Assembly: GCF_002214165.1 (NCBI RefSeq)
Contig: NZ_CP019964.1
Coordinates: forward strand, 810,001-842,000
Length of the DNA: 32,000 nt
Source: Candidatus Saccharimonadota bacterium
Lineage (GTDB): Archaea; Micrarchaeota; Micrarchaeia; Micrarchaeales; Micrarchaeaceae
Direction of reading: 5' to 3'
Positions 6,901-24,210 of this stretch are shown here, piece by piece. The number at the start of each line of letters is the position of its first letter. Position 1 is the stretch's first letter. Position numbers and translations under genes: made by a program. A model generated the notes under the pieces. It ran no database searches. It was not told the DNA's origin and saw only the letters and a list, made by a program, of their open reading frames with translations.

Positions 6901-6949
6901 GAAGAGTGCTTCGAATGACAGTAATTTTAGGGAGAAATGGTTGGTTTTC

Positions 6950-7383: not shown

Positions 7384-7424
7384 AATACAACTCTATATTC
7401 TTTCAGATTTTAATACCTTTTGGT

Positions 7425-7915: not shown

Positions 7916-7922
7916 ATTCCCA

Positions 7923-9431: not shown

Positions 9432-9478
9432 TATTTCAAATATTATAAATTCTATTTTTAAACCGGCTTCATAGGACC

Positions 9479-9560
9479 GTATTCCCTTAAAACTTTAATC
9501 AAATCCCGACCGGTCCATTTGTCAAACTATATCTCAATAACTTGAATACCAAACTTTTTG
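9479..9560 (+). repeat. direct repeat copy 1 (att-like); partner at 20907-20975
   Basis: 9479-9520 gtattcccttaaaactttaatcaaatcccgaccggtccattt is 40/42 identical to 20907-20948. Gapped similarity continues (aaactat...gaatacc...tttt). Confidence 0.65.
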
Positions 9561-9760
9561 CATTTATTATGCAGTTTTTTTTATCAAAGGGGACTAAAGG
9601 TACATTTCTCGAATATGCATCTTAACCTATTATCCGGTCACTGAAATTCCTGGTTCCCACCATGGATCTCTGTTAGCTGGTTTCTTGTCTTATGAGTGAA
9701 GTTCACACCCATGCAGGAATGAATTCCTCACCGATTGCCGTTCATTCAATCTTCCGATCC

Positions 9761-11200
9761 CTATGTTTTCTTGTAAATCTCGCGTTCTATGTCTGAAAGA
9801 TCCATAAGAATCACATCACTAATTGGCTCTTGCAGTGTCCATTTGAATCCGCTCTTAGAAAACACAGCATAGCTATATTTCTTTCCGGGGTACTGCTTTC
9901 TCAGTGTTTCCGACTTTGTCCTTAAGGCTTCAACTATACTTATGGGAACTGGGCTGTTTGTCCACTTGCATTCAGCGAAAAGCAATTCTCCTCGTGTTTC
10001 GGAATATGCAACGATATCTATCTCCTCAACGTCCCTGCCCTTTTTGTTGGACTCATTCCTGCCCCACCATCTGGAAACCGTATCAAATGATCTGCCCAGT
10101 ATCCCTTCCAATATGAGCTCCTTCATGAGGTTCTCAAACTGCTCACCCGCAAAAGTGGGGAAATCATCCACTATGATCTTAAGAATCTCTTCATTGCGAG
10201 AATTCTCAATCTCGCTCTTGTGTGGCAGTACATACCTGAACCAGAACTTCAGATACGGGTCGGATATCCAGTTTAATCTTCTCTTAAATTTCTCAGAAGC
10301 TCCAAAAGGTTTCTCCGGAATAACTAAGCCCAGTGACATGAGCACGTCCAGATATTTTGATACCATGCTCTTGTCCAGACCGGAATAGGCGCATATCTCC
10401 CCCAATGTATGATTTCCGTATGAAATGGATCTGAGAATCAGCATGTAATTCCTAGGTTCCCTAAATTCAGTTCTGAGAAGAAAATCTGCCTCCTCGTAGA
10501 GGGGCGCTCCTTTTGAAATGATGCTTTTTGAAACGTTTTCCCAGAATCCCGTATCAGGATCAAGTTTCAGGAGGTAATCTGGTATGCCGCCAAATACAAA
10601 GTATGTATTACATAAATCTTCGAACCCATAATTCACGAATTCTGACAAGTATCTGAACTTCAGTGGTCGTAACTGCAATTGGCCTGTTCTTCTGCCGTAA
10701 AGAGGGCTCCTGTAAGAAAGCACCTCATTTTCCATCATGCTGATAGAAGAGCCTGAAAGAATCAGCATTACGTTCTTCTCCCTCAGTACGGTGTCATATA
10801 CCTTCTGGAATACCGACGGTATTGCCCTGTTAGCCTCTATGAGATATGGGAATTCATCTATGACAATTATGATCTTTGATTCACGTGCTTTCGCTTGAAA
10901 TGAACTGCTCGAAGTCAGAACAGTGAAAAGAGAGTGCCAGTCGTCGAAATTAGCCATAAGGATGCTTTCATCACCCAGGAACTTTGACATAATGGCTTTG
11001 AAGCTGTTTATGTTCTCCCTGTCTCCCTCTGCAGTTGCAAGAAAATAAACACCCCTGGTGCCTAGGAACTTGCTGATCAATTCGGTCTTCCCAACCCTTC
11101 TCCTGCCATAAAGGATGAATAGTGAGGGCCCTTTCGCAGACATGGCCCTTTCCAGGATTTTCATTTCTTCGATCCTGTCAACAAACTTTTGTTGAGACAT
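9761..11200 (-). CDS. archaeal AAA-type ATPase (PF01637-like) with a C-terminal DUF234 nuclease-like domain
   Basis: FVDRIEEMKILE...LYGRRRVGKTELI (Walker A), IIVIDEFPYL (Walker B), and the C-terminal EIDIVAYSE...LLFAECKW (D...E.K restriction-endonuclease-like motif). Confidence 0.8.
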   Translation of the reverse strand: MSQQKFVDRIEEMKILERAMSAKGPSLFILYGRRRVGKTELISKFLGTRGVYFLATAEGDRENINSFKAIMSKFLGDESILMANFDDWHSLFTVLTSSSSFQAKARESKIIIVIDEFPYLIEANRAIPSVFQKVYDTVLREKNVMLILSGSSISMMENEVLSYRSPLYGRRTGQLQLRPLKFRYLSEFVNYGFEDLCNTYFVFGGIPDYLLKLDPDTGFWENVSKSIISKGAPLYEEADFLLRTEFREPRNYMLILRSISYGNHTLGEICAYSGLDKSMVSKYLDVLMSLGLVIPEKPFGASEKFKRRLNWISDPYLKFWFRYVLPHKSEIENSRNEEILKIIVDDFPTFAGEQFENLMKELILEGILGRSFDTVSRWWGRNESNKKGRDVEEIDIVAYSETRGELLFAECKWTNSPVPISIVEALRTKSETLRKQYPGKKYSYAVFSKSGFKWTLQEPISDVILMDLSDIEREIYKKT

Positions 11201-11335
11201 AAGTATTATACTTTAGTCACAACGAATATTTATACATATCTCGGCGTGATTTACTGAGCTAAACATCCAAGACATATACCATTATAATATTAAGCAGATC
11301 TCGACCTTTCCTTCAAGTTTTAATTCCTTGAATTT

Positions 11336-11381
11336 TTGATAGAGTAGAGTTCTGGCATTGCCCAGAACTCTACTCTATCAA
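11336..11381. repeat. perfect 20-bp inverted repeat with a 6-nt loop, in an intergenic region
   Basis: ttgatagagtagagttctgg (11336-11355), loop cattgc, ccagaactctactctatcaa (11362-11381). Lies about 90 nt downstream of the DoxX-like stop on the minus strand. Confidence 0.85.
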
Positions 11382-11470
11382 TTACGGAGATGCAGAAGCG
11401 GTCAAATGCACCTCAGTGACATATTACCAAAAATTATGGAGATAGGGTTAAAAAATATGTGTGATTTTTC

Positions 11471-12025
11471 TTATTTTTCGCCAGAATTAATCTCCGCCAG
11501 CTTGGACCAATTCCTGTATTTTTTTTCTATGTAGTAATCAAGACTATATTTGCTTGTTCCAAAGGCGCCGTTTATCAGTATGAGCAGAAGAAATACAAGC
11601 ACATAAATTATGCTTGTGCCTATATCGGTCGCACCGTATATGTAAAAACCGCCGAAACCCTCTGGTACGGACCACATAAAGAAGCTGAAGATTGCCCCAA
11701 GGAAATAGACTATTTTCCTCAATAAACCAAATAGTATTGCTAACGCAAGCAGAGTCTCAAGTAAAGCAATAAGCAATGCAAACAGGTACGGATCATAGGA
11801 CGTTACATTGATCCAAAACTGAAACCACGGCATCATCCAGGACGGCTGCTGAATCATTGAGCTCTGAATCATGGATTCGAACCCACTGAAGAATGCGGGT
11901 TGCCATTTGAGCCATGCATCGGCGAGCCATACCACCCCAAACAGAACGCGCATAATCACTTTATATCCGGCCATATTCCTTACAAACCAGTTTCCATTTG
12001 CCATAGCATTCATTGTTTGATTCAA
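11471..12025 (-). CDS. DoxX/DoxD-like polytopic membrane protein (family assignment tentative)
   Basis: Hydrophobic 184-aa protein with RVLFGVVWLADAWLKWQP near the N-terminus. Its start overlaps the copA stop by 4 nt, so it is co-transcribed with copA. Confidence 0.45.
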   Translation of the reverse strand: MNQTMNAMANGNWFVRNMAGYKVIMRVLFGVVWLADAWLKWQPAFFSGFESMIQSSMIQQPSWMMPWFQFWINVTSYDPYLFALLIALLETLLALAILFGLLRKIVYFLGAIFSFFMWSVPEGFGGFYIYGATDIGTSIIYVLVFLLLILINGAFGTSKYSLDYYIEKKYRNWSKLAEINSGEK

Positions 12026-14097
12026 GTTACCACCACTCCTTTTTCATATTTCTGGATAAGCTTTGATACGTTGCGTCTCAACAGAAGTGAATTAAGAACC
12101 ACGGATGTGGAACTCATCCCCATGGCAAGTGCTGAAAGTATGGGCAGAAATGAATAGATCGACAGGCCAAACAGTGGGACAAGTAACCCTCCGGCTACAG
12201 GGATTAATGCAGTGTTGTAACCAAACGCCCATCCAATGTTCTGCTTGACCTTCCCTATGGTTTTTTTGCCTATGATCTTGGCATATACCACATCATTGAG
12301 ATCGTTTTTGAGGAGTATAATGTCTCCACTCTCCCTTGCGATATCGGTGCCCGAACCCATGGCAATTCCGACATCGGCTGTTTCCAGAGCCACAGTATCG
12401 TTGATTCCATCTCCAGTGAAAATTACATGATCCCCTGCTGCCTGATATTTCTTTATTATTTCTGATTTGTCTGCAGGAAGCACCTCGGCGTGAATATCAT
12501 CGATTCCAAGCTGATTTCCCACTCTTCTTGCTTCTTCCATGGAGTCCCCGGTTATCATTGAAGACCTAATTCCCATGGATCTGAGGCCTTTTATGGCAGA
12601 AACGGCTTCCTTCCTGATGACGTAGGAAAGTGAAATGAACCCCCTTTCCTCGTTATCAACATTCACTGATACGGTCGATCCCCCTTCCTTCTTTGCTCTT
12701 GAGACCCTGATTTCCTTATCATTTACCCTGCCTGTAATCCCTACGCCGGGAATCTCCTTAATTTCCGTCGCTTCGAATAGAGGAATCTTCTTGTTCTCGG
12801 CCAACGCAACTATGGCTCTTGCGATTGGATGGTTTGAGGCTGATTCAACAGAAGCTGCTAGTGCAATGACGTTTTCCTCAGAGTCGGCAGGAGAGACAGA
12901 AATTCCTGTAACCACAGGATCCGGCTCGGTAAGTGTTCCGGTCTTGTCAAAAACGGCCCGTGTTGATTTTGACAATCTATCCAGCGCACTTACATTCTTC
13001 ACTATTATGCCGTTCTCAGAAGATACGTTGGACGAGATGAGTAGAGTAATTGGTCCAGCAAGGCCAATGGCACAGGGGCAGGCGACAACCACGACAGAAA
13101 CAAAAGCAAGGATGCCTATTTCAAGCGCCAGCGGATATCCTACGCTTGAAAGATAGAAGTACCAGAAAAGCGAAGCCACAAGAGCGGATGAAATAACGAT
13201 GGGAACGAATACCGAGGAGAAAACATCGGCAATTCTCTGAACTTTGACCCGGCCGGAACTCGCTCTCTGTATGAGTTCGTATATCTGACTCACCGTGCTG
13301 TCTTTTCCAGTCCTGGTTACGTTTATTCGAATAACACCGTTAAGGTTCTTAGTGCCTGATGCCACAACCTGACCGGCGGACTTCAGAACAGGCTCCTGCT
13401 CTCCAGTGAGCATGGATTCGTCCACCTCGCTCTTGCCTTCATATATTATTCCGTCGACCGAGATCACCTCGCCAGGCTTTACTAATATTTTATCGCCCGG
13501 TCTTATCTCATCGGTCTTCTTGTCAGTGATATCACCAAGGCTGGCGATGTAGTGGACAACGTTAGGTATCATTCCAATTAGCTTGCTGGCTGCTCTGTTT
13601 GCCTTCACCTTTGTGAGGTTTTCAATGAAATTACCTGTTAAAATAAGAGTCACGATGAAAGACGATGCATCAAAATACACCTCGGAAGGTGGAATTGAGC
13701 TTGGTCGAGCGATTGTTACATAGGCGGAGAACACGAATGCAGTAAGAGTTCCCAAGGAAACTAGCAAATCCATGTTTGCCGATCTGCTCTTTAATGCATG
13801 ATATGAACCCTCATAGAATCCGTAGCCGGAATAGAATTGGACAGGCAACGTCAGGATGAGGAGAAGATAATTCAGGTAAAAAATGGAATGTGAAAAACCA
13901 TATGTGATAACTATAACTGGTATAGAAAGTGACCACCCAACAATCAGTCTGCGCTTGAGCTTCCTGGCTTCGGTCTCAGGAGATGAGTACTTCTGCTGGC
14001 AGGTTTTTGAACAAAAATAGTATGTTTGCCCGTCGACTACCGACTTCAGGTCAGTATCCTCCGGTACAAACATTCCACACACTGGATCAGTTGGCAT
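12022..14097 (-). CDS. copA: P1B-type heavy-metal (Cu+) transporting ATPase with an N-terminal TRASH/YHS metal-binding domain
   Basis: DPVCGMFV...YYFCSKTCQQKY (TRASH), TGE, transmembrane CPC (VACPCAIGLAGP), DKTGTLT phosphorylation site, GDGINDTVAL hinge. Confidence 0.92.
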   Translation of the reverse strand: MPTDPVCGMFVPEDTDLKSVVDGQTYYFCSKTCQQKYSSPETEARKLKRRLIVGWSLSIPVIVITYGFSHSIFYLNYLLLILTLPVQFYSGYGFYEGSYHALKSRSANMDLLVSLGTLTAFVFSAYVTIARPSSIPPSEVYFDASSFIVTLILTGNFIENLTKVKANRAASKLIGMIPNVVHYIASLGDITDKKTDEIRPGDKILVKPGEVISVDGIIYEGKSEVDESMLTGEQEPVLKSAGQVVASGTKNLNGVIRINVTRTGKDSTVSQIYELIQRASSGRVKVQRIADVFSSVFVPIVISSALVASLFWYFYLSSVGYPLALEIGILAFVSVVVVACPCAIGLAGPITLLISSNVSSENGIIVKNVSALDRLSKSTRAVFDKTGTLTEPDPVVTGISVSPADSEENVIALAASVESASNHPIARAIVALAENKKIPLFEATEIKEIPGVGITGRVNDKEIRVSRAKKEGGSTVSVNVDNEERGFISLSYVIRKEAVSAIKGLRSMGIRSSMITGDSMEEARRVGNQLGIDDIHAEVLPADKSEIIKKYQAAGDHVIFTGDGINDTVALETADVGIAMGSGTDIARESGDIILLKNDLNDVVYAKIIGKKTIGKVKQNIGWAFGYNTALIPVAGGLLVPLFGLSIYSFLPILSALAMGMSSTSVVLNSLLLRRNVSKLIQKYEKGVVVT

Positions 14098-14108
14098 GTT
14101 TATTCTCC

Positions 14109-14249
14109 TTACCTGCTATATTTCAGGGGATTCTTGTCGAATTCTTCCTTGCAGTGGCTGCTGCAGAAGTAGAACGTTTTTCCCTGAAACTCACTCTTCA
14201 GGTCAGTGTTCTCTTTCACTTTCATTCCGCATATCACATCTGTTGCCAT
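14109..14249 (-). CDS. small TRASH-domain metal chaperone (CopT/CopZ-like)
   Basis: MATDVICGMKVKENTDLKSEFQGKTFYFCSSHCKEEFDKNPLKY is a C-x-x...C-x3-C TRASH pattern. Lies 11 nt upstream of copA on the same strand. ATG at 14249 is preferred over the longer track ORF. Confidence 0.7.
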   Translation of the reverse strand: MATDVICGMKVKENTDLKSEFQGKTFYFCSSHCKEEFDKNPLKYSR

Positions 14250-14324
14250 AGTTATGAATTGTGATGCGATACATATATTATTACCATTCATAATGTTAAA
14301 GTAGTTGAGTAAAATCATTACATT
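14250..14324. promoter_or_regulatory. divergent promoter/operator region between the chaperone-copA operon and the TRASH regulator
   Basis: 75-bp AT-rich spacer between divergent starts at 14249 (-) and 14325 (+), with TATA-like runs (atacatatattatta, ttaaagtag). Inferred by analogy with archaeal copR/copTA loci. Confidence 0.4.
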
Positions 14325-14864
14325 ATGAGAAGAAACATTTCTGAATTGGAACAGAGACTCATATTATTACTCAAGAGAAATTCCAGGATGAGTATAGTTG
14401 ACATAGCAAGGGAACTGGGTACAAGCAGGCTTACAGCCAAGAAGGCTCTGGACTCCATAGTATCAAGCGGAAGGATCAAAAAATTCACAATCTCTCTTGC
14501 CGATGAAGAAATAGATATGGTTCTTGTATACACCGACAATTTAGAGAATATACCAGAAAATATTATCCTGGAACGCTTCTGTTTGATAGATGGATCCTAT
14601 ATGATAATCCTGTACTATGAGGACCTTATAAAGATAAAGAAGGCAAACATAAAAAGAGTTGAAATAGCAACCTCCAGGGAGGTGAATGAAAACATGACCA
14701 GGGCGGAAGGCATCCACTGCGATTACTGCAGAAAGGAGATCAAGGACAATCCGATCTCATTAGAAATAAGGGGAAAGACATATTATGTGTGCTGTCCGAA
14801 CTGTGAGAGAGACCTTAAGAAAAGAGGAGAGGTAATTCTCGAGGAAAATTCCGGACATCAGTAG
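14325..14864 (+). CDS. copR: copper-responsive transcription regulator: Lrp/AsnC-type HTH plus a C-terminal TRASH domain (CopR-like)
   Basis: N-terminus LLLKRNSRMSIVDIARELGTSRLTAKKALD (HTH). C-terminus HCDYCRKEIKDNPISLEIRGKTYYVCCPNCERDLKK (TRASH). Divergent from the cop operon. Confidence 0.75.
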   Translation: MRRNISELEQRLILLLKRNSRMSIVDIARELGTSRLTAKKALDSIVSSGRIKKFTISLADEEIDMVLVYTDNLENIPENIILERFCLIDGSYMIILYYEDLIKIKKANIKRVEIATSREVNENMTRAEGIHCDYCRKEIKDNPISLEIRGKTYYVCCPNCERDLKKRGEVILEENSGHQ

Positions 14865-14995
14865 AAACAAATACAGATGAAAAGGGGCATGAGGTATTTC
14901 CACTCAAACTGTTCTCATAATGTTTAGTACATTGTAGTGTTCTGGACAGTTTGGGCAGTTATATTATAAATAACTGAGAAGAATTATAATTAATT

Positions 14996-15409
14996 ATGAA
15001 TGGGAAAAGAGATTCCCCTACCGGGAGGGGTTCGCTGTTTGACAGGTCTGAAAATGACCAGACGGGCAGAAATTCCAACATTTCAGAATTAATATCTGTT
15101 GGGAAGGGGAATGTTGAATTGGGAAATGGGGTGGTAAAGATTGCAGAAGGAAAATATCTCGTCTTGGAGTTGAGCGAAGAAAAGGGCCCTTGCCCCGATA
15201 ATATGTGCCAATTGAAAGCTGAAATTAATATAAGAATTCTTGGCAGCATCAATGATCCATCCTCATATGAAATAATCAGAACAGATAAATTCACGTTGGC
15301 CATAAGCAAAGCTGTATGGCATGCTATAGATAAAGGCAGGCAGGGTATTTCCATCAGGAAAGGAAGATTTGGTAATCTCAGCGTAAAGGGATTCTCACTA
15401 ACCTACTGA
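14996..15409 (+). CDS. hypothetical protein
   Basis: 137-aa ORF with no motif recognised. It competes with antisense ORF 14959-15354. The plus strand is preferred only for its more ordinary amino-acid composition. Confidence 0.3.
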   Translation: MNGKRDSPTGRGSLFDRSENDQTGRNSNISELISVGKGNVELGNGVVKIAEGKYLVLELSEEKGPCPDNMCQLKAEINIRILGSINDPSSYEIIRTDKFTLAISKAVWHAIDKGRQGISIRKGRFGNLSVKGFSLTY

Positions 15410-15551
15410 CAACTCTCTGCTCTTTTGTACCCCACATAGAAGACGAATGGTCTCACTCTATAAGGTAACTTATCATTGTGTATGCATATACTTACCAAAA
15501 TTTACAGATTGAATAAGGCATTGTTTTATACATTTGCATAATTTCGTAAAT

Positions 15552-15743
15552 ATGTCTTGTGGATGTATGAAGAATGCAGGAAATGATATGGGAAAGCAAC
15601 ACATGCACAGCCACGGTGGTGAGGAAAACCTCCCAGCAGACGATACTAAATCTGCACTGGGCATACTGAATGAGAGGTATGCAAGAGGAGAAATCGCAAA
15701 GGAAGAGTATTTAAGCATGAAGAATGAAATTTTGTCAAGGTGA
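15552..15743 (+). CDS. small SHOCT-domain protein with a Cys/His-rich N-terminus
   Basis: MSCGCMKNAGNDMGKQHMHSHGGEE, followed by ALGILNERYARGEIAKEEYLSMKNEIL (SHOCT pattern RYA.GEI..eEY...K). ATG at 15552 is chosen over the TTG at 15534. Confidence 0.6.
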   Translation: MSCGCMKNAGNDMGKQHMHSHGGEENLPADDTKSALGILNERYARGEIAKEEYLSMKNEILSR

Positions 15744-15747
15744 AATA

Positions 15748-16146
15748 ATGGCAACTGAATACAGAGTCAAATCAAAGCATTCCTTCGATGAGGTGTGTGA
15801 CAAGATAAGAGAGATCGTACCACCAAATGGTTTCTCAATACTATCTGAGATCAGGACAAGCGACATCTTGAGGTCAAAGGGATTTGAATATCCTAATCTC
15901 AGAACGTTTGATATTTGCAATGCCGGTTACGCCAACAGGGCACTTTCTCTTGACACACGGGTTGAAACAATTATTCCATGCCATTTGATAGTAAAGGAAG
16001 CAGAGAATCATACGGAAGTATCTGTTCAGCTGCCCAGAGAAATGTTTGACTCCCTCCACACGGAGGAATCTGAGGAAATGGAGAGTTTCATGAGCGAAGT
16101 TGAAGCAAAACTTAAGGGTATTGTGGATTCATTCGCTGATGAGTGA
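15748..16146 (+). CDS. DUF302-domain protein
   Basis: SFDEVCDKIREIVPPNGFSILSEI...FDICNAGYANRAL...IIPCHLIVKE matches my recollection of the DUF302 pattern. Starts 5 nt after the SHOCT gene stop. Confidence 0.65.
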   Translation: MATEYRVKSKHSFDEVCDKIREIVPPNGFSILSEIRTSDILRSKGFEYPNLRTFDICNAGYANRALSLDTRVETIIPCHLIVKEAENHTEVSVQLPREMFDSLHTEESEEMESFMSEVEAKLKGIVDSFADE

Positions 16147-16964
16147 AGAGTGTATTACTTGACTTTACAAAGTTTATTGAGGTGTCCGGCGTGAATGATA
16201 ACGATTGGATAAGCACAGTTTTATCTTCGCCCTTCATGAAAATAATGGCGGACAGTCTCAACAGGTCTAGCAATGAGATGGATCCAAGGGCAACACCGCT
16301 ATACAAGGCAGTGATCGGACATGTCGGCCCTGAACGCACAGTTATCGACATAGGCGCAGGCGTCGGTAGATTTGCCATCCCTCTTGCACAGGATGGAATA
16401 AAGGTAACCGCAGTTGAACCCAGTGATGAGATGCGCAGACATCTGAAGGAGGCTATAGCAAGCAGTGGTCTATCGTCCGGAATAAATGTAGTCCCGTCTT
16501 CGTGGCCTGTAGATAAGGCCCTGACCGCGGAGGTAGTCTTCGCATCATTTGTCATTCAGTTCTCCAAAAATCCTATGGAATTTATCCATGCCATGGAAAG
16601 GTCTGCAAGGAATCAATGTATACTGTCTGTTCATGTGGACCAGCCACTTGAGTTTTTAAGAAATATCTGGCAAGTTTTCCGTCCTACAGAACCCGTGCCT
16701 GTGATGCTCACTTTTTCTGATCTTTATCCAATGCTCCTGAACATGGGCATCATAGCCAATGTTGCGATTATAGAGGAAAAGCGTATGTCCAGGCCAGTGA
16801 TGGAACCTGCCAAGATCATTACACTGCTTTCCGACCTCCTGAGTATCAGGGATAAGCCTGCAGACATGCAACGACTGAAGGAAATCCTGGAGGGCATGAG
16901 AAGCCGGATTCAAGAGCCACCTTCCATGAGAACTGCCATTGTCTCATGGCAGCCCAGGAGATGA
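16143..16964 (+). CDS. class I SAM-dependent methyltransferase (start uncertain: GTG at 16143 or ATG at 16236)
   Basis: Motif I VIDIGAGVGRFAIPLAQDG, then the acidic post-I VTAVEPS. Overlaps the neighbouring genes at both ends. Confidence 0.7.
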   Translation: MKSVLLDFTKFIEVSGVNDNDWISTVLSSPFMKIMADSLNRSSNEMDPRATPLYKAVIGHVGPERTVIDIGAGVGRFAIPLAQDGIKVTAVEPSDEMRRHLKEAIASSGLSSGINVVPSSWPVDKALTAEVVFASFVIQFSKNPMEFIHAMERSARNQCILSVHVDQPLEFLRNIWQVFRPTEPVPVMLTFSDLYPMLLNMGIIANVAIIEEKRMSRPVMEPAKIITLLSDLLSIRDKPADMQRLKEILEGMRSRIQEPPSMRTAIVSWQPRR

Positions 16965-17698
16965 GAATTATGGAACGAATAGATACGGGAAAGGCGAAAT
17001 CGGACAGGGGTTTTGCATCCGTAACCACCATTGTTTCTGTCATCATTATTGCAGTCCTAGTCTTCGCCGCAATATCAGCGGCTGCGTTTGTAATGTACGG
17101 TTCTGGAATTGGCGGCTTTGGCTCCGGGGGGCCTGGAGGCGGTGCCAATTCTATCTTCATAGTGAACAATACATCATTCAATAGGATGAATTCAGTTCCA
17201 GCAGGTGTTGCCGTCAACAACAGCAGCAATACCATAAACGTGACTTCGAAGAGCGTAACCCTCATCGTTGAGGCTGCACCCACATGGTACCCCGGGCAGG
17301 GGGATTTCTGGTTAATTTATGGACTGGCCAATCCAAATATAGTGATCAGGGAGGGCACCACGGTTCATTTTGTGTTCATAAACATGGACAACATTACTCA
17401 CATGCCTGCTATCACCACCAACAGTCCGCCATATAGCTACATGCCTATGCAGGGCAACATGATGGGATCTGGTACGGATTCAGGCTCCGGAATGATGGGA
17501 TACCAAGGCGGTGGTAACGGTAGCTGGCTTGCAATAGGTCCCATGCTACCTGGAACTTCGGCGAATGCCAATGATCAGGCATACGCTGCCTCAAACCTAA
17601 CGGTGACATTCAGTTCCAGTGGGAACTACTACTACATATGCCTCATTCCGGGGCATGCACAGATGGGTATGTACGGAGAGATTTCCGTTCAAGGATAA
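16946..17698 (+). CDS. membrane-anchored type-1 (blue) copper protein, sulfocyanin-like cupredoxin with Gly-rich and Met-rich inserts
   Basis: N-terminal TM segment VTTIVSVIIIAVLVFAAISAAAFV. Type-1 Cu ligand motif YYYICLIPGHAQMGMYG (C-x2-P-G-H-x2-M). Upstream His in NITHMPA. Met-rich loop YSYMPMQGNMMGSGTDSGSGMMG. Confidence 0.7.
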   Translation: MAAQEMRIMERIDTGKAKSDRGFASVTTIVSVIIIAVLVFAAISAAAFVMYGSGIGGFGSGGPGGGANSIFIVNNTSFNRMNSVPAGVAVNNSSNTINVTSKSVTLIVEAAPTWYPGQGDFWLIYGLANPNIVIREGTTVHFVFINMDNITHMPAITTNSPPYSYMPMQGNMMGSGTDSGSGMMGYQGGGNGSWLAIGPMLPGTSANANDQAYAASNLTVTFSSSGNYYYICLIPGHAQMGMYGEISVQG

Positions 17699-17712
17699 GG
17701 AGAAGAGAGATT

Positions 17713-18291
17713 ATGTCACAGCAACAGGATAGACACTTCAGACCGGGAATAATGCTTTTTCCCATCAGAAAATACATGTCAAGACCCCAACACGATTTTA
17801 TAAATACCAACGTGAAACGTGGTATGACCGCGCTCGATCTTGGAAGCGGCCCCGGATTCTTCACGACCATGCTATCGGAAGCGGTAGGAATAAACGGCAC
17901 TGTTCATGCGGTGGATGGTGATAAAGCCGCTGTGACGCGACTCCAGAACAGGGCTGGTGCACTTGGCATGGTGAACATCAAGGCATACGCTTCTTCTGCA
18001 GCCAGTATTCCATACATACAAAGCAAATCAATAGATGTTCTCTTTTCAAACGGCCTCCTCTGCTGCATGCTTGACCACAGGGGGGCAGTGGATGAGATGA
18101 TGCGCGTTATGAAAACAGGCTCAAGAGGTTTCATCAGCGTAACAAAGTTGTTCAGGAAAGACGGCCTTGGCGTTCCAAAGGATGAGTGGAAGGAAATCAC
18201 GAGATCATTTGATGTGGTAGATTCAGGATCATCAGTTGTGATGGATTGGGTCGTTGTTTCTAAGCCCGGAGATGATAAAAATGAATTATGA
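17713..18291 (+). CDS. class I SAM-dependent methyltransferase
   Basis: Motif I ALDLGSGPGFFTTMLSE and post-I VHAVDGD. ATG at 17713 (MSQQQDRHF) is preferred over the track start 17638, which overlaps the cupredoxin gene. Confidence 0.7.
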   Translation: MSQQQDRHFRPGIMLFPIRKYMSRPQHDFINTNVKRGMTALDLGSGPGFFTTMLSEAVGINGTVHAVDGDKAAVTRLQNRAGALGMVNIKAYASSAASIPYIQSKSIDVLFSNGLLCCMLDHRGAVDEMMRVMKTGSRGFISVTKLFRKDGLGVPKDEWKEITRSFDVVDSGSSVVMDWVVVSKPGDDKNEL

Positions 18292-18760
18292 CGCGACGAG
18301 AAGAAACCGCATGGGCACCCCGTCAAGATTAGGTGTGAACCTGATACTGCTGGAATTCTTTTTGCTGATTATTCAGTTCGTAATCGGAATGTGGATGAAT
18401 CTTTTTGCCGTATTCCCATCCTTTGGTCAATCTTTTTTCATGTATGGAATGATGCAGGTAATGTTTTCCGTACCGGAACTCATGGTTCACATGATGCTAG
18501 GAATTTTTATCGGACTGGTGTCCTTGATGATTTTCTTTGTATTTGCAATGGCGGGTGACTACAGGCTTTCAGCGTTAAGCGCCGTGGCATCCATATCCAT
18601 ACTCACCGCCGGCATCGGAGGCCTTGAATTCATGTTCTCCGGATTTACGAACAACATATTCTCTTTCCTCATGTCCTTAGGATTCATTTTTACCATTGTA
18701 GCCTATGCCTCTATATTATACATGATTTCCAGCAGTGATCGACGAACCGGAACTCCATAA
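18281..18760 (+). CDS. integral membrane protein (about four TM segments)
   Basis: Hydrophobic translation (LILLEFFLLIIQFVIGMWMNLFAVF...). The start overlaps the stop of the preceding methyltransferase gene. Confidence 0.5.
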   Translation: MNYDATRRNRMGTPSRLGVNLILLEFFLLIIQFVIGMWMNLFAVFPSFGQSFFMYGMMQVMFSVPELMVHMMLGIFIGLVSLMIFFVFAMAGDYRLSALSAVASISILTAGIGGLEFMFSGFTNNIFSFLMSLGFIFTIVAYASILYMISSSDRRTGTP

Positions 18761-18762
18761 AC

Positions 18763-19836
18763 ATGCAAAATTTTTTTAAAAGACTTCTGGCATTATTTCT
18801 TGTTTTTGTCTCAAGTTTTGTTCTTTCATATATATATTCAGAAGACCTTTACCTGAAGCTCGGTTCCGGTACGCTGGACGTCTTTTACGCAGAATTTTCT
18901 ATAGGTACTATACCATTAATATTTTACCTATTCATTTGGTGGAGAAAACACAAATACCAAGAGGGGGACAAGTTCATTCATTTTTTAAGAATTTCATTCG
19001 GCTACTTGTGGATTCTTGACGCACTCCTGCAGATGCAACCCGGGATGAACGAATACTTCGCTGCAATGATAATTGCCCCTAACATCAGCGCAGGGGGAAT
19101 AACCGGCTATGTTTCAACCTTTGCCCTTTCTTTGTGGAATATGCATCCTGTTGTGTTTGATGTTGCATCTTCCCTGATCCAGTTATATATAGGTGGAGTT
19201 CTTTTAACACAAAACAGAGGAAAGATATACTCTTTAACACAAATGATAGCCATATTATGGGGATTTTCCATCTGGATTTTTGGAGAAGGATTCGGAGGCA
19301 CTTTCGGTTCGGGAGCTACCATTCTTACCGGGTTTCCGGGCTCTGTATTAATCTATGTCTACGCATCTCTAATACTCCTTCTATCATCGAAAAATCGCGG
19401 CGGAATGATACGTAAATCATCTTATTTTTTCGGAGGCCTGATATTCATACCATCATTAATTGTACAACTTATGCCGTCTAATGGCTATTTGGGGAACATG
19501 TCAGTGATATTTATGCCGATGCCGTCTCCATCGGGAATACTGAATTTTGCAAATGAATTTCAGTATTATTTCACCCAATCGCCAGTATGGCCAGACATTG
19601 TGACTCTTTTTCTTATTCTGGCATCTGCCGCTGGATGGATACTTGGAAAGTCCTATGGCTATGTTTTTTCTGGCATTCTTGCATCCTTTTCGTGGATAGT
19701 TTTCCAGGGTCTTGGTATACTGGGAATCTTGAGTACAGACCCAAATACCGGCCTGCCCATGTTAATAATAAGCATCTTCTTCTATCTCTGGACTAAAGAA
19801 TATTTCACGTCAAGCAATGGGTTGTCAAATGATTAA
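18763..19836 (+). CDS. polytopic membrane protein whose N-terminal part is paralogous to the DoxX-like protein at 11471-12025
   Basis: ISFGYLWILDALLQMQPGMNEYF resembles VLFGVVWLADAWLKWQPAFFSGF in the DoxX-like ORF. Eight or more hydrophobic segments. Confidence 0.55.
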   Translation: MQNFFKRLLALFLVFVSSFVLSYIYSEDLYLKLGSGTLDVFYAEFSIGTIPLIFYLFIWWRKHKYQEGDKFIHFLRISFGYLWILDALLQMQPGMNEYFAAMIIAPNISAGGITGYVSTFALSLWNMHPVVFDVASSLIQLYIGGVLLTQNRGKIYSLTQMIAILWGFSIWIFGEGFGGTFGSGATILTGFPGSVLIYVYASLILLLSSKNRGGMIRKSSYFFGGLIFIPSLIVQLMPSNGYLGNMSVIFMPMPSPSGILNFANEFQYYFTQSPVWPDIVTLFLILASAAGWILGKSYGYVFSGILASFSWIVFQGLGILGILSTDPNTGLPMLIISIFFYLWTKEYFTSSNGLSND

Positions 19837-19869
19837 ATAAATTGCTGTAATATATATGCAAGAGGTAAA

Positions 19870-20721
19870 ATGAGCAGTAACCAGGGTAACACGCCATATA
19901 GGGATCTCCTTACGGCTTCAATATACTGGATAATACTTGGTATATTCCTGTATTCATATTTCCAGACGAGAAATCCCCTATCGCTGTCCGTTGCGACGGA
20001 CAGGGTGGTTGACGCTTTATCCATTTCATTCATTTTCCTAGTGAACAGAATAGCGCGAAAACCTGGTGATGAATATCACTCCTATGGTTTCCACAGAGTT
20101 GAAGTTATACTGAATGCAACAGTCATCCTCCTTTTCGTGGCTATGGCTATTTACTCAGCATTAATGACCACTCAGCTTCTTCTGACAAACGCAATCAGAT
20201 CACCGGCCTCTACGGTTGTATCCTCAATTGTTACCGTTCCATTGCTTTTGCTGGCGGCGTTTACCATGCAGAGAGATAAGAAATCAAACTTCAGGGTTAT
20301 GTTCATACACACCCTCCAGGATCTTGAAATAATATTAGTCACACTGGTGTTCTCTCTTGCTTCAGAATATTTTATCGGGCCATCGTTGAGTTATATTGGA
20401 AGCTATGCAGTTATCCTGATCATACTGTATGGAAACAGGAATATGTTCAGAAGAAATTTCAACATGCTCATGGAAGGTTCGCAGGTAAGTGTAAGGGAAG
20501 TTGAGGACAGGATCAAGAAAGAGTTTCCGAATGCGCACCACCTTCACATATGGGACATCTGCCAACACCAGAGAGTTGCTACTTTACATCTTAGTGTTCT
20601 TCCATGCACGAAGATCGGTGAACTTGATAAAACTAATGCTGCTATTAAGAGTCTGCTTTCAAAGTATGGGGTTAATCATGTCACGATCCAGTTTGAATCA
20701 GCAGACCCCACAAAATCTTGA
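19870..20721 (+). CDS. cation diffusion facilitator (CDF) family divalent-metal efflux transporter
   Basis: TM2 D-x3-D (TDRVVD), HSYGFHRVEVILN signature, TM5 H-x3-D (HTLQD), and a C-terminal cytoplasmic domain with HHLHIWD. Confidence 0.75.
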   Translation: MSSNQGNTPYRDLLTASIYWIILGIFLYSYFQTRNPLSLSVATDRVVDALSISFIFLVNRIARKPGDEYHSYGFHRVEVILNATVILLFVAMAIYSALMTTQLLLTNAIRSPASTVVSSIVTVPLLLLAAFTMQRDKKSNFRVMFIHTLQDLEIILVTLVFSLASEYFIGPSLSYIGSYAVILIILYGNRNMFRRNFNMLMEGSQVSVREVEDRIKKEFPNAHHLHIWDICQHQRVATLHLSVLPCTKIGELDKTNAAIKSLLSKYGVNHVTIQFESADPTKS

Positions 20722-20906
20722 ATACTGCCATTCGATTGAGCCACCTCTGGCTGGGGCAGTTAATAGCTTCTGATGGGAGTGAATGCAATTATTCCTACTG
20801 CAACGGTAAGTATGATCCTCGTCAGGTAGTCTACATATTTTAGATGTATTTTTTCCCAGGGCTTTGGAGGGCCCACTTGAAGAGACATAGTTCATCAGGA
20901 TTCAGA

Positions 20907-20975
20907 GTATTCCCTTAAGACATTAATCAAATCCCGACCGGTCCATTTAAACTATTAATCGAATACCTTTTATGC
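20907..20975 (+). repeat. direct repeat copy 2 (att-like), overlapping the integrase promoter region
   Basis: See 9479-9560. Ends about 20 nt before the integrase ATG at 20995 and contains the TATA-like ccttttatgc. Confidence 0.65.
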
Positions 20976-20994
20976 TACCACTCGTTATGTTCTC

Positions 20995-22284
20995 ATGACC
21001 ATGCAGCCGAAGTATCAGCAACTGCTTCTTGACGATGACGTGCGTAGATGGTTTGAGAACCTCAGGGCAAAGTCAGTATTGACGGCAACGGTAGCCCTGA
21101 GGAATCTGGGGCATTATTGCGAGCTTACAGAAACAACCCCGAAGGAAATCCTGATTAGAGCCAGGACAAATGAAAAGGATTTCCGCTACGAGTTTACGGA
21201 TTTTGTCAGGAAGATGGAGAAAGAAGGCAAGGCAGGATCGTACATTGCAAGGTTCAAGAAGGTCATTCTCTCATGGCTGAAGTTTAACGATATCCGTTTG
21301 CAGTTAACCGTTAACATATCCGGCGAGAATGAAACTCCTACGATAGCGAACGAACGGGTTCCCAGCAAGGAAGAGCTTGCAAGAGTCCTCAGAAAGGCCA
21401 CCTCAAGAGGCAGGGTGGCCATAGCGATCATGGCATTCTCAGGCCTCAGGCCAGAGTCTCTGGGAGACTATGAGGGCTCAGACGGTCTCAGGCTTGGCGA
21501 CTTCAAGGAACTGAAACTGTCCAATGAAATCCAGTTCGATAATATTCCCGCTATGGTAATGGTGAAGAGCAGGCTCAGTAAGACACGGCACCAGTATTTC
21601 AGTTTTATTGGCGAAGAGGGAGTGACCTACATCAGGGAATATCTTGAGGAGAGGAGGAAGCAGGGAGAGGAGTTAACGTATGAATCGCCACTGTTGCAGT
21701 TTGATTCCAGAGGCACGAAAAAGAACGCATTTTTGAGAACAACACTGGTAACGAGGGACATAAGGGAAGCCATAGAACAGGCCGGGTTGAAGATGCGCCC
21801 CTATGTTCTGAGGGCATACTTCTCAACAGCACTGGATATAGCGGAGTCCAAGGGGCTCATATCACATCCCTGGAGGCAGTTCATTATGGGCCACAAAGGT
21901 GATATTGAAGCCAGATATTCCACAAACAAGCGATTGCCACCAGATATTATCGATGAGATGAGGGAATCTTACAGAAAATGCCTTAAATTTCTTGAAACGA
22001 GAATATCCGAGGTATCGGAGGACAACGCCAAGCTATTCTTACAGCAACAGCTATTATCAGCAGTGGGCTACAAACAGGAAGAGATAGACAAGATAGACCT
22101 TGCAAGCGTGAGCAACGAGGACTTTCAGCAATTATTACGGGACAAGGTAGCAGGAGCGATGAGCGACAACGGAGCAAAGCAGAAGGTCATACCTGTAAGC
22201 GATATAGAGCAGTATATCAGCGATGGATACGACTTTGAGGCAGTTCTTCCGAACGGAAAAGCGGTAATGAGGGTAAGGTTTTAA
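20995..22284 (+). CDS. int: tyrosine recombinase / integrase with a tail of about 110 aa after the catalytic Tyr
   Basis: Catalytic pattern: AFSGLRPESL (Arg I), LSKTRHQYFSF (Lys hairpin region), YVLRAYFST (x-x-x-R), FIMGHKGDIEARYS (His, Tyr). Confidence 0.8.
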   Translation: MTMQPKYQQLLLDDDVRRWFENLRAKSVLTATVALRNLGHYCELTETTPKEILIRARTNEKDFRYEFTDFVRKMEKEGKAGSYIARFKKVILSWLKFNDIRLQLTVNISGENETPTIANERVPSKEELARVLRKATSRGRVAIAIMAFSGLRPESLGDYEGSDGLRLGDFKELKLSNEIQFDNIPAMVMVKSRLSKTRHQYFSFIGEEGVTYIREYLEERRKQGEELTYESPLLQFDSRGTKKNAFLRTTLVTRDIREAIEQAGLKMRPYVLRAYFSTALDIAESKGLISHPWRQFIMGHKGDIEARYSTNKRLPPDIIDEMRESYRKCLKFLETRISEVSEDNAKLFLQQQLLSAVGYKQEEIDKIDLASVSNEDFQQLLRDKVAGAMSDNGAKQKVIPVSDIEQYISDGYDFEAVLPNGKAVMRVRF

Positions 22285-23270: not shown

Positions 23271-23382
23271 CCTTTCTTTTAGACAGAACAAGATAGCAAA
23301 GAAAGCTTAACCAAAGAAGGTAATTCGATTAATTGGCAGAAAAGGAATGATGTGGTAAATTGCGCAAAACTGAATCCCAGAT

Positions 23383-24163: not shown

Positions 24164-24210
24164 ATGGGTTGCGCACAATATTTAAACCTGAACTTGCATA
24201 AGTACAAACA

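What the first reader, a model, noticed from the sequence alone, without database searches (positions are those of the whole stretch)
9479..20975. 40/42-identical direct repeats bracket an 11.4 kb ATPase plus metal-resistance module immediately next to the tyrosine integrase
gtattcccttaaaactttaatcaaatcccgaccggtccattt (9479-9520) and gtattcccttaagacattaatcaaatcccgaccggtccattt (20907-20948) are direct repeats. Hand alignment gives 40/42 identity with a 26-nt identical core, ttaatcaaatcccgaccggtccattt. Gapped similarity continues to about 9560 and 20975. Copy 2 sits directly upstream of the integrase start (20995), where an attP-type site and the int promoter are expected. Copy 1 has no gene downstream on the + strand. 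The 11.4 kb in between (DUF234 ATPase, cop genes, the SHOCT-to-CDF operon) differs in function from both flanks (defence genes on the left, plasmid maintenance on the right). This is the pattern expected if an integrase-less circular cargo module recombined into the att site beside int. It is equally expected if the integrase can excise the metal island as a circle.
Basis: partly seen in the sequence, partly recalled or inferred. Interest (0 to 1): 0.65.

Follow-up and report, generated by a model that had tools for sequence, protein, structure and literature searches.

The report
Integrase attachment sites flank metal island
The two repeats are copies of the attachment site of an archaeal (Thermoplasmatales) plasmid integrase, a 20-nt arm plus the last 19 nt of a tRNA-Ala gene, and the 11.4-kb metal-resistance block between them has no integrase of its own yet sits essentially unchanged at several such sites in other contigs: a familiar island architecture, apparently not yet described for this group.

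Summary
9479-9520 and 20907-20948 are 40/42-identical direct repeats with a 26-nt exact core, and none is expected by chance.

The core, TCAAATCCCGACCGGTCCA, is the 3' end of tRNA-Ala. In related contigs, intact tRNA-Ala(TGC) or tRNA-Ala(CGC) genes end with it and run straight into the same integrase leader or the same left end of the metal module.

The 20 nt upstream (GTATTCsCTTAAAACwTTAA) are conserved at 96 junctions with otherwise unrelated flanks, all from Thermoplasmata. This arm is the right-end arm of an element family.

The window is chromosomal and ends in 23S rRNA. It holds a tandem array: defence element A (its integrase is frameshifted and lies outside the window), metal module B (no integrase), and plasmid-like element C (intact integrase with the pNOB8-type motif, ParA, resolvase, Orc1/Cdc6).

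Module B is 11,428 nt in all three full-length copies, 99.8-100% identical. In every contig that reaches its left end it starts at the same base: behind tRNA-Ala(CGC), behind tRNA-Ala(TGC), or inside this array.

So B is an integrase-less module placed by site-specific accretion and probably moved in trans or in cis, like a bacterial CIME. No circle junction or exact empty site was found.

This is a new member of a known kind. Arrays of short toxin-antitoxin modules at the same site hint at a cassette-like system.

The parts
9479..9520 (+). att copy 1, the junction between element A and module B. It has a 20-nt conserved right-end arm (9479-9498), a 19-nt tRNA-Ala 3'-end core (9499-9517) and TTT.
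   Evidence: Every other copy of module B starts to align exactly at 9499.
20907..20948 (+). att copy 2, the junction between module B and element C. It has the arm (20907-20926), the core (20927-20945) and TTT, followed by the int-type P' arm TTTAAACTATTAATCGAATAC.
   Evidence: The L005 and L120 alignments start at 20927.
11274..11315 (+). Decayed internal att (28/42). It separates sub-module B1 (DUF234 ATPase) from B2 (metal resistance).
   Evidence: It aligns in register with an intact junction in L112 whose upstream DNA is homologous to 11184-11273.
9521..20906 (.). Module B, the integrase-less cargo unit. It measures 11,428 nt core to core.
   Evidence: It is 99.8-100% identical with the same boundaries in L015-L023, L018, L019 and L020. 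No integrase similarity was found in it.
9527..9650 (-). Frameshifted C-terminal remnant of a PIN/VapC toxin gene (...LHNKCKKFGIQVIEI*). Its stop codon lies 9 nt from the att core.
   Evidence: Intact homologues sit at the same position in L076, L093, L107 and L058. The PIN domain was confirmed by Pfam.
9761..11200 (-). ATPase_2 + DUF234 + wHTH ATPase (sub-module B1).
11471..14318 (-). DoxX-like protein, CopA-type P-type ATPase with an N-terminal YHS domain (12022-14097), and a small YHS metallochaperone-like gene (14109-14318).
14325..20721 (+). HTH-TRASH metal regulator, 137-aa ORF, SHOCT, DUF302, two SAM methyltransferases, a cupredoxin-like protein, two membrane proteins and a CDF cation-efflux protein (19870-20721).
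20995..22284 (+). Intact tyrosine integrase of 429 aa. It shows the R152...Y270xxR273...H300...Y308 motif of the pNOB8 type. It is the only intact integrase in the array.
   Evidence: NCBIfam XerA model, E = 6e-9. Homologues 86% identical pass PF00589. The residues are invariant in 26 homologues. There are 1906 homologues, the named ones from Cuniculiplasma, Ferroplasma and Acidiplasma.
20949..30248 (+). Element C, an integrative plasmid-like backbone. It carries int, a 211-aa protein, ParA (24563-25315), DUF2130, a serine resolvase (27779-28393) and the N-terminal four-fifths of an Orc1/Cdc6-like gene (29387-30248). Its last 1.2 kb lies left of the window, before att copy 0.
1..9478 (+). Right 9.5 kb of element A. 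It carries small ORFs, a chimeric AAA gene (1085-2482), an N6/N4 DNA methylase, a ResIII helicase, ParE, a conserved non-coding element and an OLD-family nuclease (7923-9431, minus strand). Element A starts at att copy 0, 5.4 kb left of the window, with a frameshifted integrase.
30236..30248 (+). Right copy of the 13-bp direct repeat GCATCGCTGATAA. It marks where the whole A+B+C composite (about 36.9 kb) is inserted in a host radical-SAM gene. The left copy is at window -6640.

Best explanation
The repeats are attachment sites of a pNOB8-type (non-suicidal) tyrosine integrase. This integrase is carried by integrative plasmid-like elements of acidophilic Thermoplasmatales.

The functional site is about 41 nt: a 20-nt arm fixed at the right end of every element (GTATTCsCTTAAAACwTTAA), the last 19 nt of tRNA-Ala (TCAAATCCCGACCGGTCCA) and TT. 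A circular element recombines through the tRNA-derived core with a tRNA-Ala gene (CGC or TGC isoacceptor) or with an att junction already present. The next arrival inserts at the same core, so elements pile up head to tail. Every internal junction then looks like an attP: the arm of the left element, the core, and the left end of the right element.

The window shows such an array: element A (defence cargo, integrase frameshifted), module B (the 11.4-kb metal-resistance block, no integrase) and element C (intact integrase, ParA, resolvase, Orc1/Cdc6). B is itself an older fusion of a DUF234 module and a copper/cation module, with a decayed att between them and a VapC remnant at its left end. 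It now moves as one piece.

B must depend on an integrase supplied by a neighbour. That could be in trans, or in cis by excising and re-integrating together with the neighbour, as cis-mobilizable elements do in streptococcal ICE tandems.

Shown here: the identity of the site, its tRNA origin, the tandem architecture, and the presence of unaltered B at three kinds of att context. Inferred: that this particular integrase catalyses the reactions, the position of strand exchange within the 19-22 nt core, and that B can still excise here (copy 1 x copy 2) as an 11,428-bp circle.
For: Site identity and tRNA origin:
- The repeat is real and non-random.
- Intact tRNA-Ala(TGC) in L005, L006 and L009 ends in the core and is followed by the same leader and an integrase homologue.
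- L116 is a complete single element: tRNA-Ala 3' half, int, a 581-aa AAA protein, ParA, resolvase, Orc1/Cdc6, cargo, then arm plus core. Its attL and attR share 34 nt.
- L120, a 94% identical relative of element C, sits directly behind tRNA-Ala(TGC).

Module B as a discrete unit:
- B follows intact tRNA-Ala(CGC) in six contigs, tRNA-Ala(TGC) in L018 and a tRNA 3' half in L019. In L019 its right end abuts a different module.
- All copies are 99.8-100% identical and align from exactly 9499. The two that reach the right end (L019, L020) run to 20948-20949, and all three full-length copies measure 11,428 nt.

Spread of the backbone across hosts:
- The syntenic housekeeping flanks of L005, L009 and L018 are only 65-70% identical to one another, while element A is 98.8-99.9% identical in L005, L009 and this genome.

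Family-wide conservation of the site:
- Across 96 junctions with distinct flanks, information content rises from about 0.1 bit to 1.3-2.0 bits exactly at -20 and falls after +2.
- All 90 collection hits are Thermoplasmata or acid-mine and hot-spring metagenomes.

Integrase:
- It is a tyrosine recombinase with the R..YxxR..Y consensus of pNOB8-type integrases (consensus from PMC8371274).
- Element A's integrase is frameshifted at about residue 265.

Precedents:
- Tandem accretion and integrase-less cis-mobilizable elements are established in bacteria (PMC5704250).
- Tandem integration is reported in archaea (PMC8371274).
Against: - No circular junction of B (B right end + core + B left end) and no exact empty junction (A right end + core + int leader) turned up among the 110 junctions examined. 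Current activity in this genome is therefore unproven.
- Integrase activity and its specificity for this site are inferred only from linkage. The AlphaFold model was poor (pLDDT 52), and the window's own protein does not reach Pfam PF00589.
- All three att copies of this genome are attP-like and no intact tRNA borders the array. This needs the extra assumption that the composite left its tRNA site as a circle. The 13-bp insertion junctions support that assumption.
- The 96-junction set was retrieved with an exact 23-nt pattern, so conservation at positions -4 to +19 is partly by construction. Only -20 to -5 is independent.
Confidence: 0.85

Rival explanations
1. B is only a decayed element that lost its integrase where it sits. 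It has never moved as an integrase-less unit. Its other occurrences reflect vertical inheritance or transfer of larger segments.
For: B carries decay scars: a VapC pseudogene at its left end and a degenerate internal att. L079 shows an int leader with the integrase deleted. Integrase loss after integration is described for archaeal elements (PMC8371274).
Against: The same integrase-less B lies behind two different tRNA-Ala genes and inside this array, at 99.8-100% identity. The contigs long enough to show them carry the same scars. The L018 host flank is only 65-70% identical to the syntenic flanks of L005 and L009, so these tRNA-Ala sites belong to quite different genomes. Fifty att-bounded modules elsewhere (100 kb in total) contain no integrase remnant at E <= 1.
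Confidence: 0.07
2. The module is shuffled by the host's general homologous recombination acting on the 41-nt repeats (or on 19-22 nt at tRNA genes), not by the integrase.
For: Boundaries at a shared sequence are equally expected from homologous exchange. The same locus shows recombination between paralogous AAA genes (chimeric gene 1085-2482) and an insertion across 13 bp of identity.
Against: Only 19-22 nt are shared with the tRNA targets. The 20-nt arm, which is not in the tRNA, is conserved at 96 unrelated junctions, which points to protein recognition. Integrase genes are consistently linked to the site.
Confidence: 0.06
3. The repeat is a generic dispersed or regulatory sequence (a promoter module or MITE end), or an assembly artefact, unrelated to recombination.
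For: The motif is found at 90 loci. Copy 1 lies 48 nt upstream of the OLD nuclease start and copy 2 lies 47 nt upstream of int, so a promoter role is conceivable.
Against: The two genes face opposite ways relative to the repeat. The core is the tRNA-Ala 3' end. Copies within a locus always share one orientation and continue from an intact tRNA. The exact repeat (26 nt) is far shorter than the k = 141 suggested by the 'k141_' contig names of the related ENA and TPA assemblies. The look-up also read three contigs carrying this integrase and collapsed them as similar places.
Confidence: 0.02

Closest known systems
Cis-mobilizable elements (CIMEs) and site-specific tandem accretion with ICEs/IMEs (Streptococcus thermophilus ICESt1/ICESt3 and relatives; reviewed in PMC5704250)
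   Same: An element flanked by att sites but lacking recombination genes sits in tandem with an integrase-bearing element of the same site specificity. The internal junction is a hybrid att. The composite can excise as a whole or in parts.
   Different: The host is an archaeon. The partner is a plasmid-like element (Orc1/Cdc6, ParA, resolvase) rather than a conjugative element. The target is tRNA-Ala. Mobility is shown here only by comparative genomics.
pNOB8-type (type II, lambda-paradigm) archaeal integrases and tRNA-targeting integrative plasmids (She et al., as reviewed in PMC8371274)
   Same: The integrase gene stays intact on integration. The att overlaps the 3' part of a tRNA gene. The catalytic signature is R...YxxR...Y. 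The carrier is plasmid-like.
   Different: This is a different lineage (Thermoplasmatales; only weak hits to the XerA and PF00589 models). The shared att is short (19-34 nt, against the 40-50 nt quoted for Sulfolobales). A separately conserved 20-nt element-side arm is present. A search of the review (PMC8371274) for 'Thermoplasmata' found no occurrence; the only 'Thermoplasma' mentions found there concern the chromosomal resolvase XerA.
Tycheposons of Prochlorococcus (bioRxiv 10.1101/2020.12.28.424599)
   Same: Tyrosine-recombinase elements target a few tRNA genes. Successive integrations push older ones inward. Islands are littered with partial tRNAs. Cargo behaves as 'plug-in' modules for metal or nutrient adaptation.
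   Different: The host is bacterial and the integrases are unrelated. Here the integrase-less modules keep complete, conserved att sites, and one of them is demonstrably identical at several sites.
Integrons (IntI, attI, attC cassettes)
   Same: Arrays of short modules, including many toxin-antitoxin pairs, each end in one conserved recombination site and lie in one orientation next to a fixed anchor. A tyrosine recombinase is encoded elsewhere.
   Different: The site is not a folded palindrome (free energy about 0). The integrase is not IntI. Modules are often multi-gene, in either orientation, with their own promoters. The anchor is a tRNA gene.

Membership tests
tRNA-targeting tyrosine-integrase integrative element (lambda / pNOB8 paradigm) | Encodes a tyrosine recombinase with the catalytic residues | tested here: met
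   NCBIfam XerA model, E = 6e-9 over residues 58-280, though far below that model's own cut-off. Homologues 86% identical pass PF00589 at 31.5 bits against a cut-off of 27.1. R152, K191, Y270xxR273, H300 and Y308 are invariant in 26 homologues. The structural check failed (pLDDT 52; no PDB hit).
tRNA-targeting tyrosine-integrase integrative element (lambda / pNOB8 paradigm) | The att core is identical to part of a tRNA gene, and an intact tRNA is regenerated at one end of the integrated element | tested here: met
   The 19-nt core equals the 3' end of tRNA-Ala(TGC) and tRNA-Ala(CGC). Intact tRNA followed by element is seen in L005, L006, L009, L015-L018, L021-L023 and (as tRNA 3' parts cut by the contig start) L116 and L120. 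In this window itself no intact tRNA is present.
tRNA-targeting tyrosine-integrase integrative element (lambda / pNOB8 paradigm) | The integrase gene is intact after integration and adjacent to att (not split, unlike the SSV type) | tested here: met
   The ORF 20995-22284 is complete and starts 47 nt after the site. The same arrangement is seen in L116 and L120.
tRNA-targeting tyrosine-integrase integrative element (lambda / pNOB8 paradigm) | The integrase catalyses recombination between the att sites | not testable with these tools
   This needs an in vitro or in vivo recombination assay.
Cis-mobilizable element / tandem accretion | Flanked by two att sites in direct orientation | tested here: met
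   Copies at 9479-9520 and 20907-20948 are both on the + strand.
Cis-mobilizable element / tandem accretion | Lacks its own integrase or recombination genes | tested here: met
   Pfam scans of 13 ORFs of 130 aa or more in 9521-20906 show no recombinase. The precomputed Pfam marks on the two small called genes (YHS, SHOCT) show none either.
Cis-mobilizable element / tandem accretion | Lies in tandem with an integrase-bearing element of the same att specificity | tested here: met
   Element C's integrase starts right after copy 2. Element A, with a frameshifted integrase, lies on the other side.
Cis-mobilizable element / tandem accretion | Demonstrated excision or transfer with, or by means of, the partner element | tested here: inconclusive
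   Comparative evidence for movement is strong: identical B in three att contexts. No circle or empty-site junction was found. There is no experiment.
Integron | attC-type recombination site that folds as an imperfect single-stranded hairpin | tested here: not met
   The 42-nt site folds at 0 to -0.2 kcal/mol on either strand, no better than shuffles.
Integron | IntI-type integrase next to attI with a cassette promoter; promoterless, co-oriented cassettes | tested here: not met
   The only hit is the XerA/integron-integrase NCBIfam model, at 35.8 bits against a cut-off of 220. Modules carry genes in both orientations and whole operons.
SSV-type 'suicidal' archaeal integrase element | The att lies inside the integrase ORF, so the gene is split on integration | tested here: not met
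   The att lies upstream of an intact ORF. The signature is YxxR, not KxxR (PMC8371274).

The most novel reading that the evidence does not exclude
Thermoplasmatales may possess an integron-like cassette platform anchored at tRNA-Ala genes. Its units would be integrase-less modules of 0.6 to 11 kb: VapBC and ParE toxin-antitoxin pairs, transporters, defence genes and this metal-resistance block. Each would carry one conserved, non-palindromic site of about 41 nt at its right end.

Such modules would be captured, stacked and redistributed between chromosomes and integrative plasmids by a plasmid-borne pNOB8-type integrase acting in trans. That would make them selected mobile units rather than wreckage of decayed elements.

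Support so far:
- 50 complete att-bounded modules in 90 loci contain no integrase remnant.
- 18 of them are under 1 kb. In nine of those modules an ORF was sampled, and eight of the nine gave a PIN, VapB or ParE hit.
- In the VapC cassettes checked, the coding sequence ends within about 10 nt of the core.
- Modules recur in different array neighbourhoods.
Probability: 0.35. Interest if true: 0.7.

Novelty: new member of a known kind. Interest (0 to 1): 0.45.

Why it matters
The result explains how a complete copper and cation resistance package, plus defence islands, can be identical in several acid-mine contigs, behind two different tRNA-Ala genes. The housekeeping flanks of related contigs are only 65-70% identical, which suggests exchange between quite different Thermoplasmatales.

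It defines a concrete recombination site of about 41 nt and a candidate integrase. Together these could serve as a genetic tool for a group of archaea that has almost none.

It gives precise boundaries for annotating 'genomic islands' that earlier surveys of these genomes described only loosely. It also suggests that integrase-less modules, not only whole plasmids, are units of exchange in archaea.

Tried and rejected
- **Integrase remnant after copy 1: rejected.** The conserved 130 nt there are the 3' end of a VapC pseudogene. The similarity to the int leader is at chance level.
- **Structural confirmation of the integrase: failed.** AlphaFold2 gave pLDDT 52, so no fold search was run. Sequence and profile searches of the PDB found only a spurious hit. 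The window protein does not reach PF00589 even at E = 10.
- **Viral contigs:** the 19-nt core has no match.
- **Circle and empty junctions:** neither a B circle junction nor an A-C empty junction was found among 110 junctions from two collections plus the look-ups. The 11,461-nt Logan contig L020 spans exactly copy to copy. Its ends reach only 10 and 4 nt into the flanks and show no terminal overlap, so it is not evidence for a circle.
- **Intact element-C Orc1/Cdc6 gene:** searched for, to find the free plasmid. The best hit is 91% identical and no exact copy exists.
- **Plasmid origin of the window: rejected.** 23S rRNA lies at 30509-32000 and housekeeping genes lie to the left.
- **Conserved non-coding element at 7427-7810:** no Rfam family matches it.
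- **Literature:** four searches and five papers found no description of this tRNA-Ala/integrase system in Thermoplasmatales.

Full report
**1. The observation.** The two 42-nt sequences lie at 9479-9520 and 20907-20948 on the + strand and differ at two positions. The 26-nt exact core occurs only at these two places in the window. It occurs in none of 100 dinucleotide-preserving shuffles, even with 3 mismatches allowed.

The repeat finder also lists a weak third member at 11274-11315, at 67% identity. The window holds no tRNA gene. The claimed gapped similarity beyond the 42 nt is not better than chance: 20% of shuffles reach the same local alignment score.

**2. Gene content.** Pfam gives the following map.
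- Left of copy 1: an AAA protein (1085-2482), an N6/N4 DNA methylase, a ResIII helicase, ParE, and an OLD-family nuclease (7923-9431, minus strand).
- Between the copies: an ATPase_2/DUF234 protein, DoxX, a YHS-type P-type ATPase, an HTH-TRASH regulator, DUF302, two methyltransferases, a cupredoxin-like protein, membrane proteins and a CDF transporter.
- Right of copy 2: a 429-aa protein, ParA, DUF2130, a serine resolvase and an AAA protein.

The last 1.5 kb of the window (30509-32000, minus strand) is the 3' half of an archaeal 23S rRNA. The locus is therefore chromosomal, not a plasmid.

**3. What the repeat is.** Exact-protein look-ups place the window in contig DAHXFV010000002.1 (197 kb) of assembly GCA_027353625.1 and return related contigs.

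In L005, L006 and L009 an intact tRNA-Ala(TGC) ends with ...GGGTTCAAATCCCGACCGGTCCA. It is followed by TTTAAACTATTAATCGAATAC... and by an integrase homologue whose N-terminus matches the window protein. The repeat's 19 nt TCAAATCCCGACCGGTCCA are therefore the T-loop, T-stem, acceptor stem and discriminator of tRNA-Ala. This is the classical position of an att core.

The same contig as the window carries a further copy 5.4 kb left of the window start (L004:3953-3994). It too lacks the tRNA 5' part and is followed by an integrase homologue.

**4. The integrase.**
- The window protein hits the NCBIfam XerA model (E = 6e-9, far below that model's own cut-off) and no Pfam model.
- Homologues 86% identical pass PF00589.
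- It has 1906 homologues. Those that carry a source name are annotated as integrases of Cuniculiplasma divulgatum, Ferroplasma, Acidiplasma and Thermoplasmatales MAGs.
- R152, K191, Y270-x-x-R273, H300 and Y308 are invariant in 26 homologues. R...YxxR...Y is the consensus given for pNOB8-type archaeal integrases, whose gene stays intact on integration (PMC8371274).
- An AlphaFold2 model was too poor to use (pLDDT 52). PDB sequence and profile searches were uninformative.

**5. Architecture of the locus.** A blastn comparison with L005 shows three things.
- The DNA from the left copy to window 2022 is 99.9% identical to the L005 element. This is element A.
- The window gene 1085-2482 is a chimera of two paralogous AAA genes of that element. 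The chimera deletes its ParA-to-resolvase segment.
- The window region 20927-30244 is a 73-80% identical relative of the same backbone. This is element C.

Element A's integrase is frameshifted at about residue 265. The order is therefore: att0, A (14,888 nt), att1, B (11,428 nt), att2, C. All three junctions have the form 'arm + core + next element', as expected for internal junctions of a tandem array.

**6. Why no tRNA borders the array.** A 13-bp direct repeat, GCATCGCTGATAA, lies at window -6640 and at 30236. Joining across it restores two genes.
- A 351-aa host radical-SAM ORF. Its first 46 codons lie on the minus strand at 30404-30266.
- A 361-aa Orc1/Cdc6-type gene, co-linear with the L005 protein. 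The restored length is shared by the five best database homologues, which are 85-91% identical, and by others down the list; one hit (83% identical) is annotated Cdc6/Cdc18 family protein of Cuniculiplasma divulgatum.

The whole A+B+C composite (about 36.9 kb) was therefore a circle with three attP-like junctions. It entered the chromosome through 13 bp of identity inside its own replication-initiator gene. Element C totals about 10.6 kb and ends at att0.

**7. The metal module as a discrete unit.** Look-ups with the DUF234 and CDF proteins, followed by tRNA and att scans, show module B in four settings.
- Directly behind intact tRNA-Ala(CGC), next to housekeeping genes (DEAD helicase, RFC, RtcB), in six contigs.
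- Behind intact tRNA-Ala(TGC) in L018. The neighbouring genes there (AA-kinase, FMN-dehydrogenase, ZPR1) are the same set that flanks tRNA-Ala(TGC) in L005.
- In L019, behind a tRNA 3' half, with its right end (the same arm, AAGACA variant, plus core) abutting a different module.
- In this array.

All copies are 99.8-100% identical and begin to align exactly at 9499. Those that reach the right end stop at 20948. The three full-length copies all measure 11,428 nt.

The syntenic host flanks of L005, L009 and L018 are only 65-70% identical to one another. Element A is 98.8-99.9% identical in the first two and in this genome. This points to recent spread among quite different hosts.

L120, a 94% identical relative of element C, sits directly behind tRNA-Ala(TGC) with no metal segment. 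L116 shows the canonical single element bounded by the tRNA and by arm plus core, with 34 nt of identity between its two ends.

**8. Internal history of B.** The weak copy at 11274-11315 aligns in register with an intact junction in L112, whose upstream DNA is homologous to window 11184-11273. B is thus an old fusion of a DUF234 module and the metal module.

The 130 nt after att1 are the frameshifted 3' end of a PIN/VapC gene. The gene is intact at the same position in L076, L093, L107 and L058.

**9. The site across the family.** Scanning for TTAATCAAATCCCGACCGGTCCA found 34 metagenome stretches and 56 stretches in species-representative genomes. All the genome records are titled Thermoplasmata, Thermoplasmatales or relatives.

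Across 96 junctions with distinct flanks, information content is about 0.1 bit up to -21. It is 1.3-2.0 bits from -20 to +2, and about 0.1 bit beyond. Positions -4 to +19 were fixed by the search pattern; -20 to -5 were not.

Every element carries the arm at its right end, and nothing is conserved at left ends.

Int-bearing elements add TTTAAwsTATTAATyGAATAC after the core, so that GTATTC and GAATAC form an outer inverted repeat. The site has no hairpin potential.

**10. Arrays elsewhere.** Within the fetched loci, att cores in one orientation delimit 50 complete modules of 637-5711 nt. Several arrays start at an intact tRNA-Ala(CGC) gene.
- None of the 50 modules contains an integrase remnant; the only hit at E <= 1 is a weak one at E = 0.2.
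- Eighteen are shorter than 1 kb. Ten ORFs from nine of these modules were scanned: nine ORFs gave a PIN, VapB, ParE or partner-domain hit, covering eight of the nine modules.
- Some modules recur in different neighbourhoods.

Loci were capped at 8 kb, so long int-bearing elements are under-sampled.

**11. Comparison with known systems.**
- Tandem accretion at att sites and integrase-less cis-mobilizable elements are well described for streptococcal ICEs and IMEs (PMC5704250).
- Tandem integration and integrase loss are noted for archaeal elements (PMC8371274).
- Prochlorococcus tycheposons build tRNA-anchored islands full of partial tRNAs (bioRxiv 10.1101/2020.12.28.424599).
- Surveys of Cuniculiplasma and other acidophile genomes report islands with integrases and tRNAs, but not this site or system (PMC5155288, PMC12302457).

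The finding is therefore a new member of a known kind. The dense arrays of intact-site, integrase-less toxin-antitoxin modules are the part that could turn out to be a distinct, cassette-like variant.

**12. Verdict.** The repeats are att sites. The 11.4-kb block is an integrase-less module inserted by site-specific accretion. The neighbouring integrase is the only intact candidate catalyst in the array.

Excision of B (att1 x att2), of A (att0 x att1), or of both together is predicted. Element C can no longer leave through the integrase, because the composite is interrupted by the 13-bp insertion junction. Activity in this genome remains to be shown.

Noticed in passing
window 30236-30248 and 30249-30404 (minus strand); partner at L004:2722-2734 (window -6640): A 13-bp direct repeat, GCATCGCTGATAA, flanks the whole 36.9-kb composite. 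Joining across it restores a 351-aa host radical-SAM gene and a 361-aa Orc1/Cdc6-like plasmid gene. The composite circle therefore integrated through 13 bp of identity inside its own replication-initiator gene. Neither the mechanism (microhomology or the resident serine recombinase) nor an intact copy of the host gene was identified.
   Followed up: partly
window 7427-7810; also L004:3022-3430, a diverged copy near window 22850-23130, and more than 20 other loci: A non-coding element of about 380 nt, pyrimidine-rich on the + strand, is 80-96% identical across otherwise diverged elements, and most of its columns are invariant. RNAalifold predicts 89 pairs (-104 kcal/mol). Indels are confined to loops or remove a whole hairpin, and four pairs show compensatory changes. 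No Rfam family matches. In three of the four places where both were seen (L004, L116, L117) it lies directly downstream of the Orc1/Cdc6-like gene; in the window cargo genes intervene. It could be a structured RNA or an origin of replication.
   Followed up: partly
window 1085-2482: The 465-aa AAA gene is a chimera. Its 5' part is 99.9% identical to the 581-aa gene of the L005 element. Its last 476 nt are 92% identical to the 3' end of that element's Orc1/Cdc6-like gene. Recombination between the two paralogues deleted the ParA-to-resolvase segment of element A.
   Followed up: yes
L004:4041-5311 (window -5321 to -4051): The integrase of element A is split into 265-aa and 152-aa ORFs by a frameshift at about residue 265, just before the YxxR motif. 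The eight other contigs that cover this region (L005, L006, L009 and near-identical ones) show the same two called ORFs.
   Followed up: yes
window 11336-11381: A perfect 20-bp inverted repeat with a 6-nt spacer (TTGATAGAGTAGAGTTCTGG / CCAGAACTCTACTCTATCAA) lies just right of the decayed att and downstream of the minus-strand cop operon. It could be a terminator or a protein-binding site.
   Followed up: no
window 399-433, 24493-24512, 25552-25605, 26941-26975: Copies of an AACGGTTAAC-like motif, direct and inverted, cluster around the parA gene and the 90-aa gene of element C and recur in element A. They are candidate partition (centromere-like) or iteron sites.
   Followed up: no
L048 (five junctions), L042, L065, L096, L076, L093 and others: Arrays of short integrase-less modules (0.6-4 kb), many of them VapBC or ParE toxin-antitoxin pairs, lie in one orientation. 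Each ends in the conserved 41-nt site. The L042, L065 and L096 arrays start at an intact tRNA-Ala gene; in L048, L076 and L093 no tRNA lies within the fetched stretch.
   Followed up: partly
window 30405-30508 and 30509-32000: The 3' end of the 23S rRNA gene is followed within about 100 nt by the promoter side of the radical-SAM gene. Rfam detects no 5S rRNA or tRNA there, which fits the unlinked rRNA genes of Thermoplasmatales (this last point is from my own knowledge).
   Followed up: no
L116:22-55 and 14731-14764: In the single-element contig the two ends share 34 nt (the core plus TTTAATGTATTAATC). The first 15 nt of the integrase leader therefore equal the host sequence downstream of tRNA-Ala in that host, and the usable att may be longer than the 19-nt tRNA part.
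   Followed up: partly
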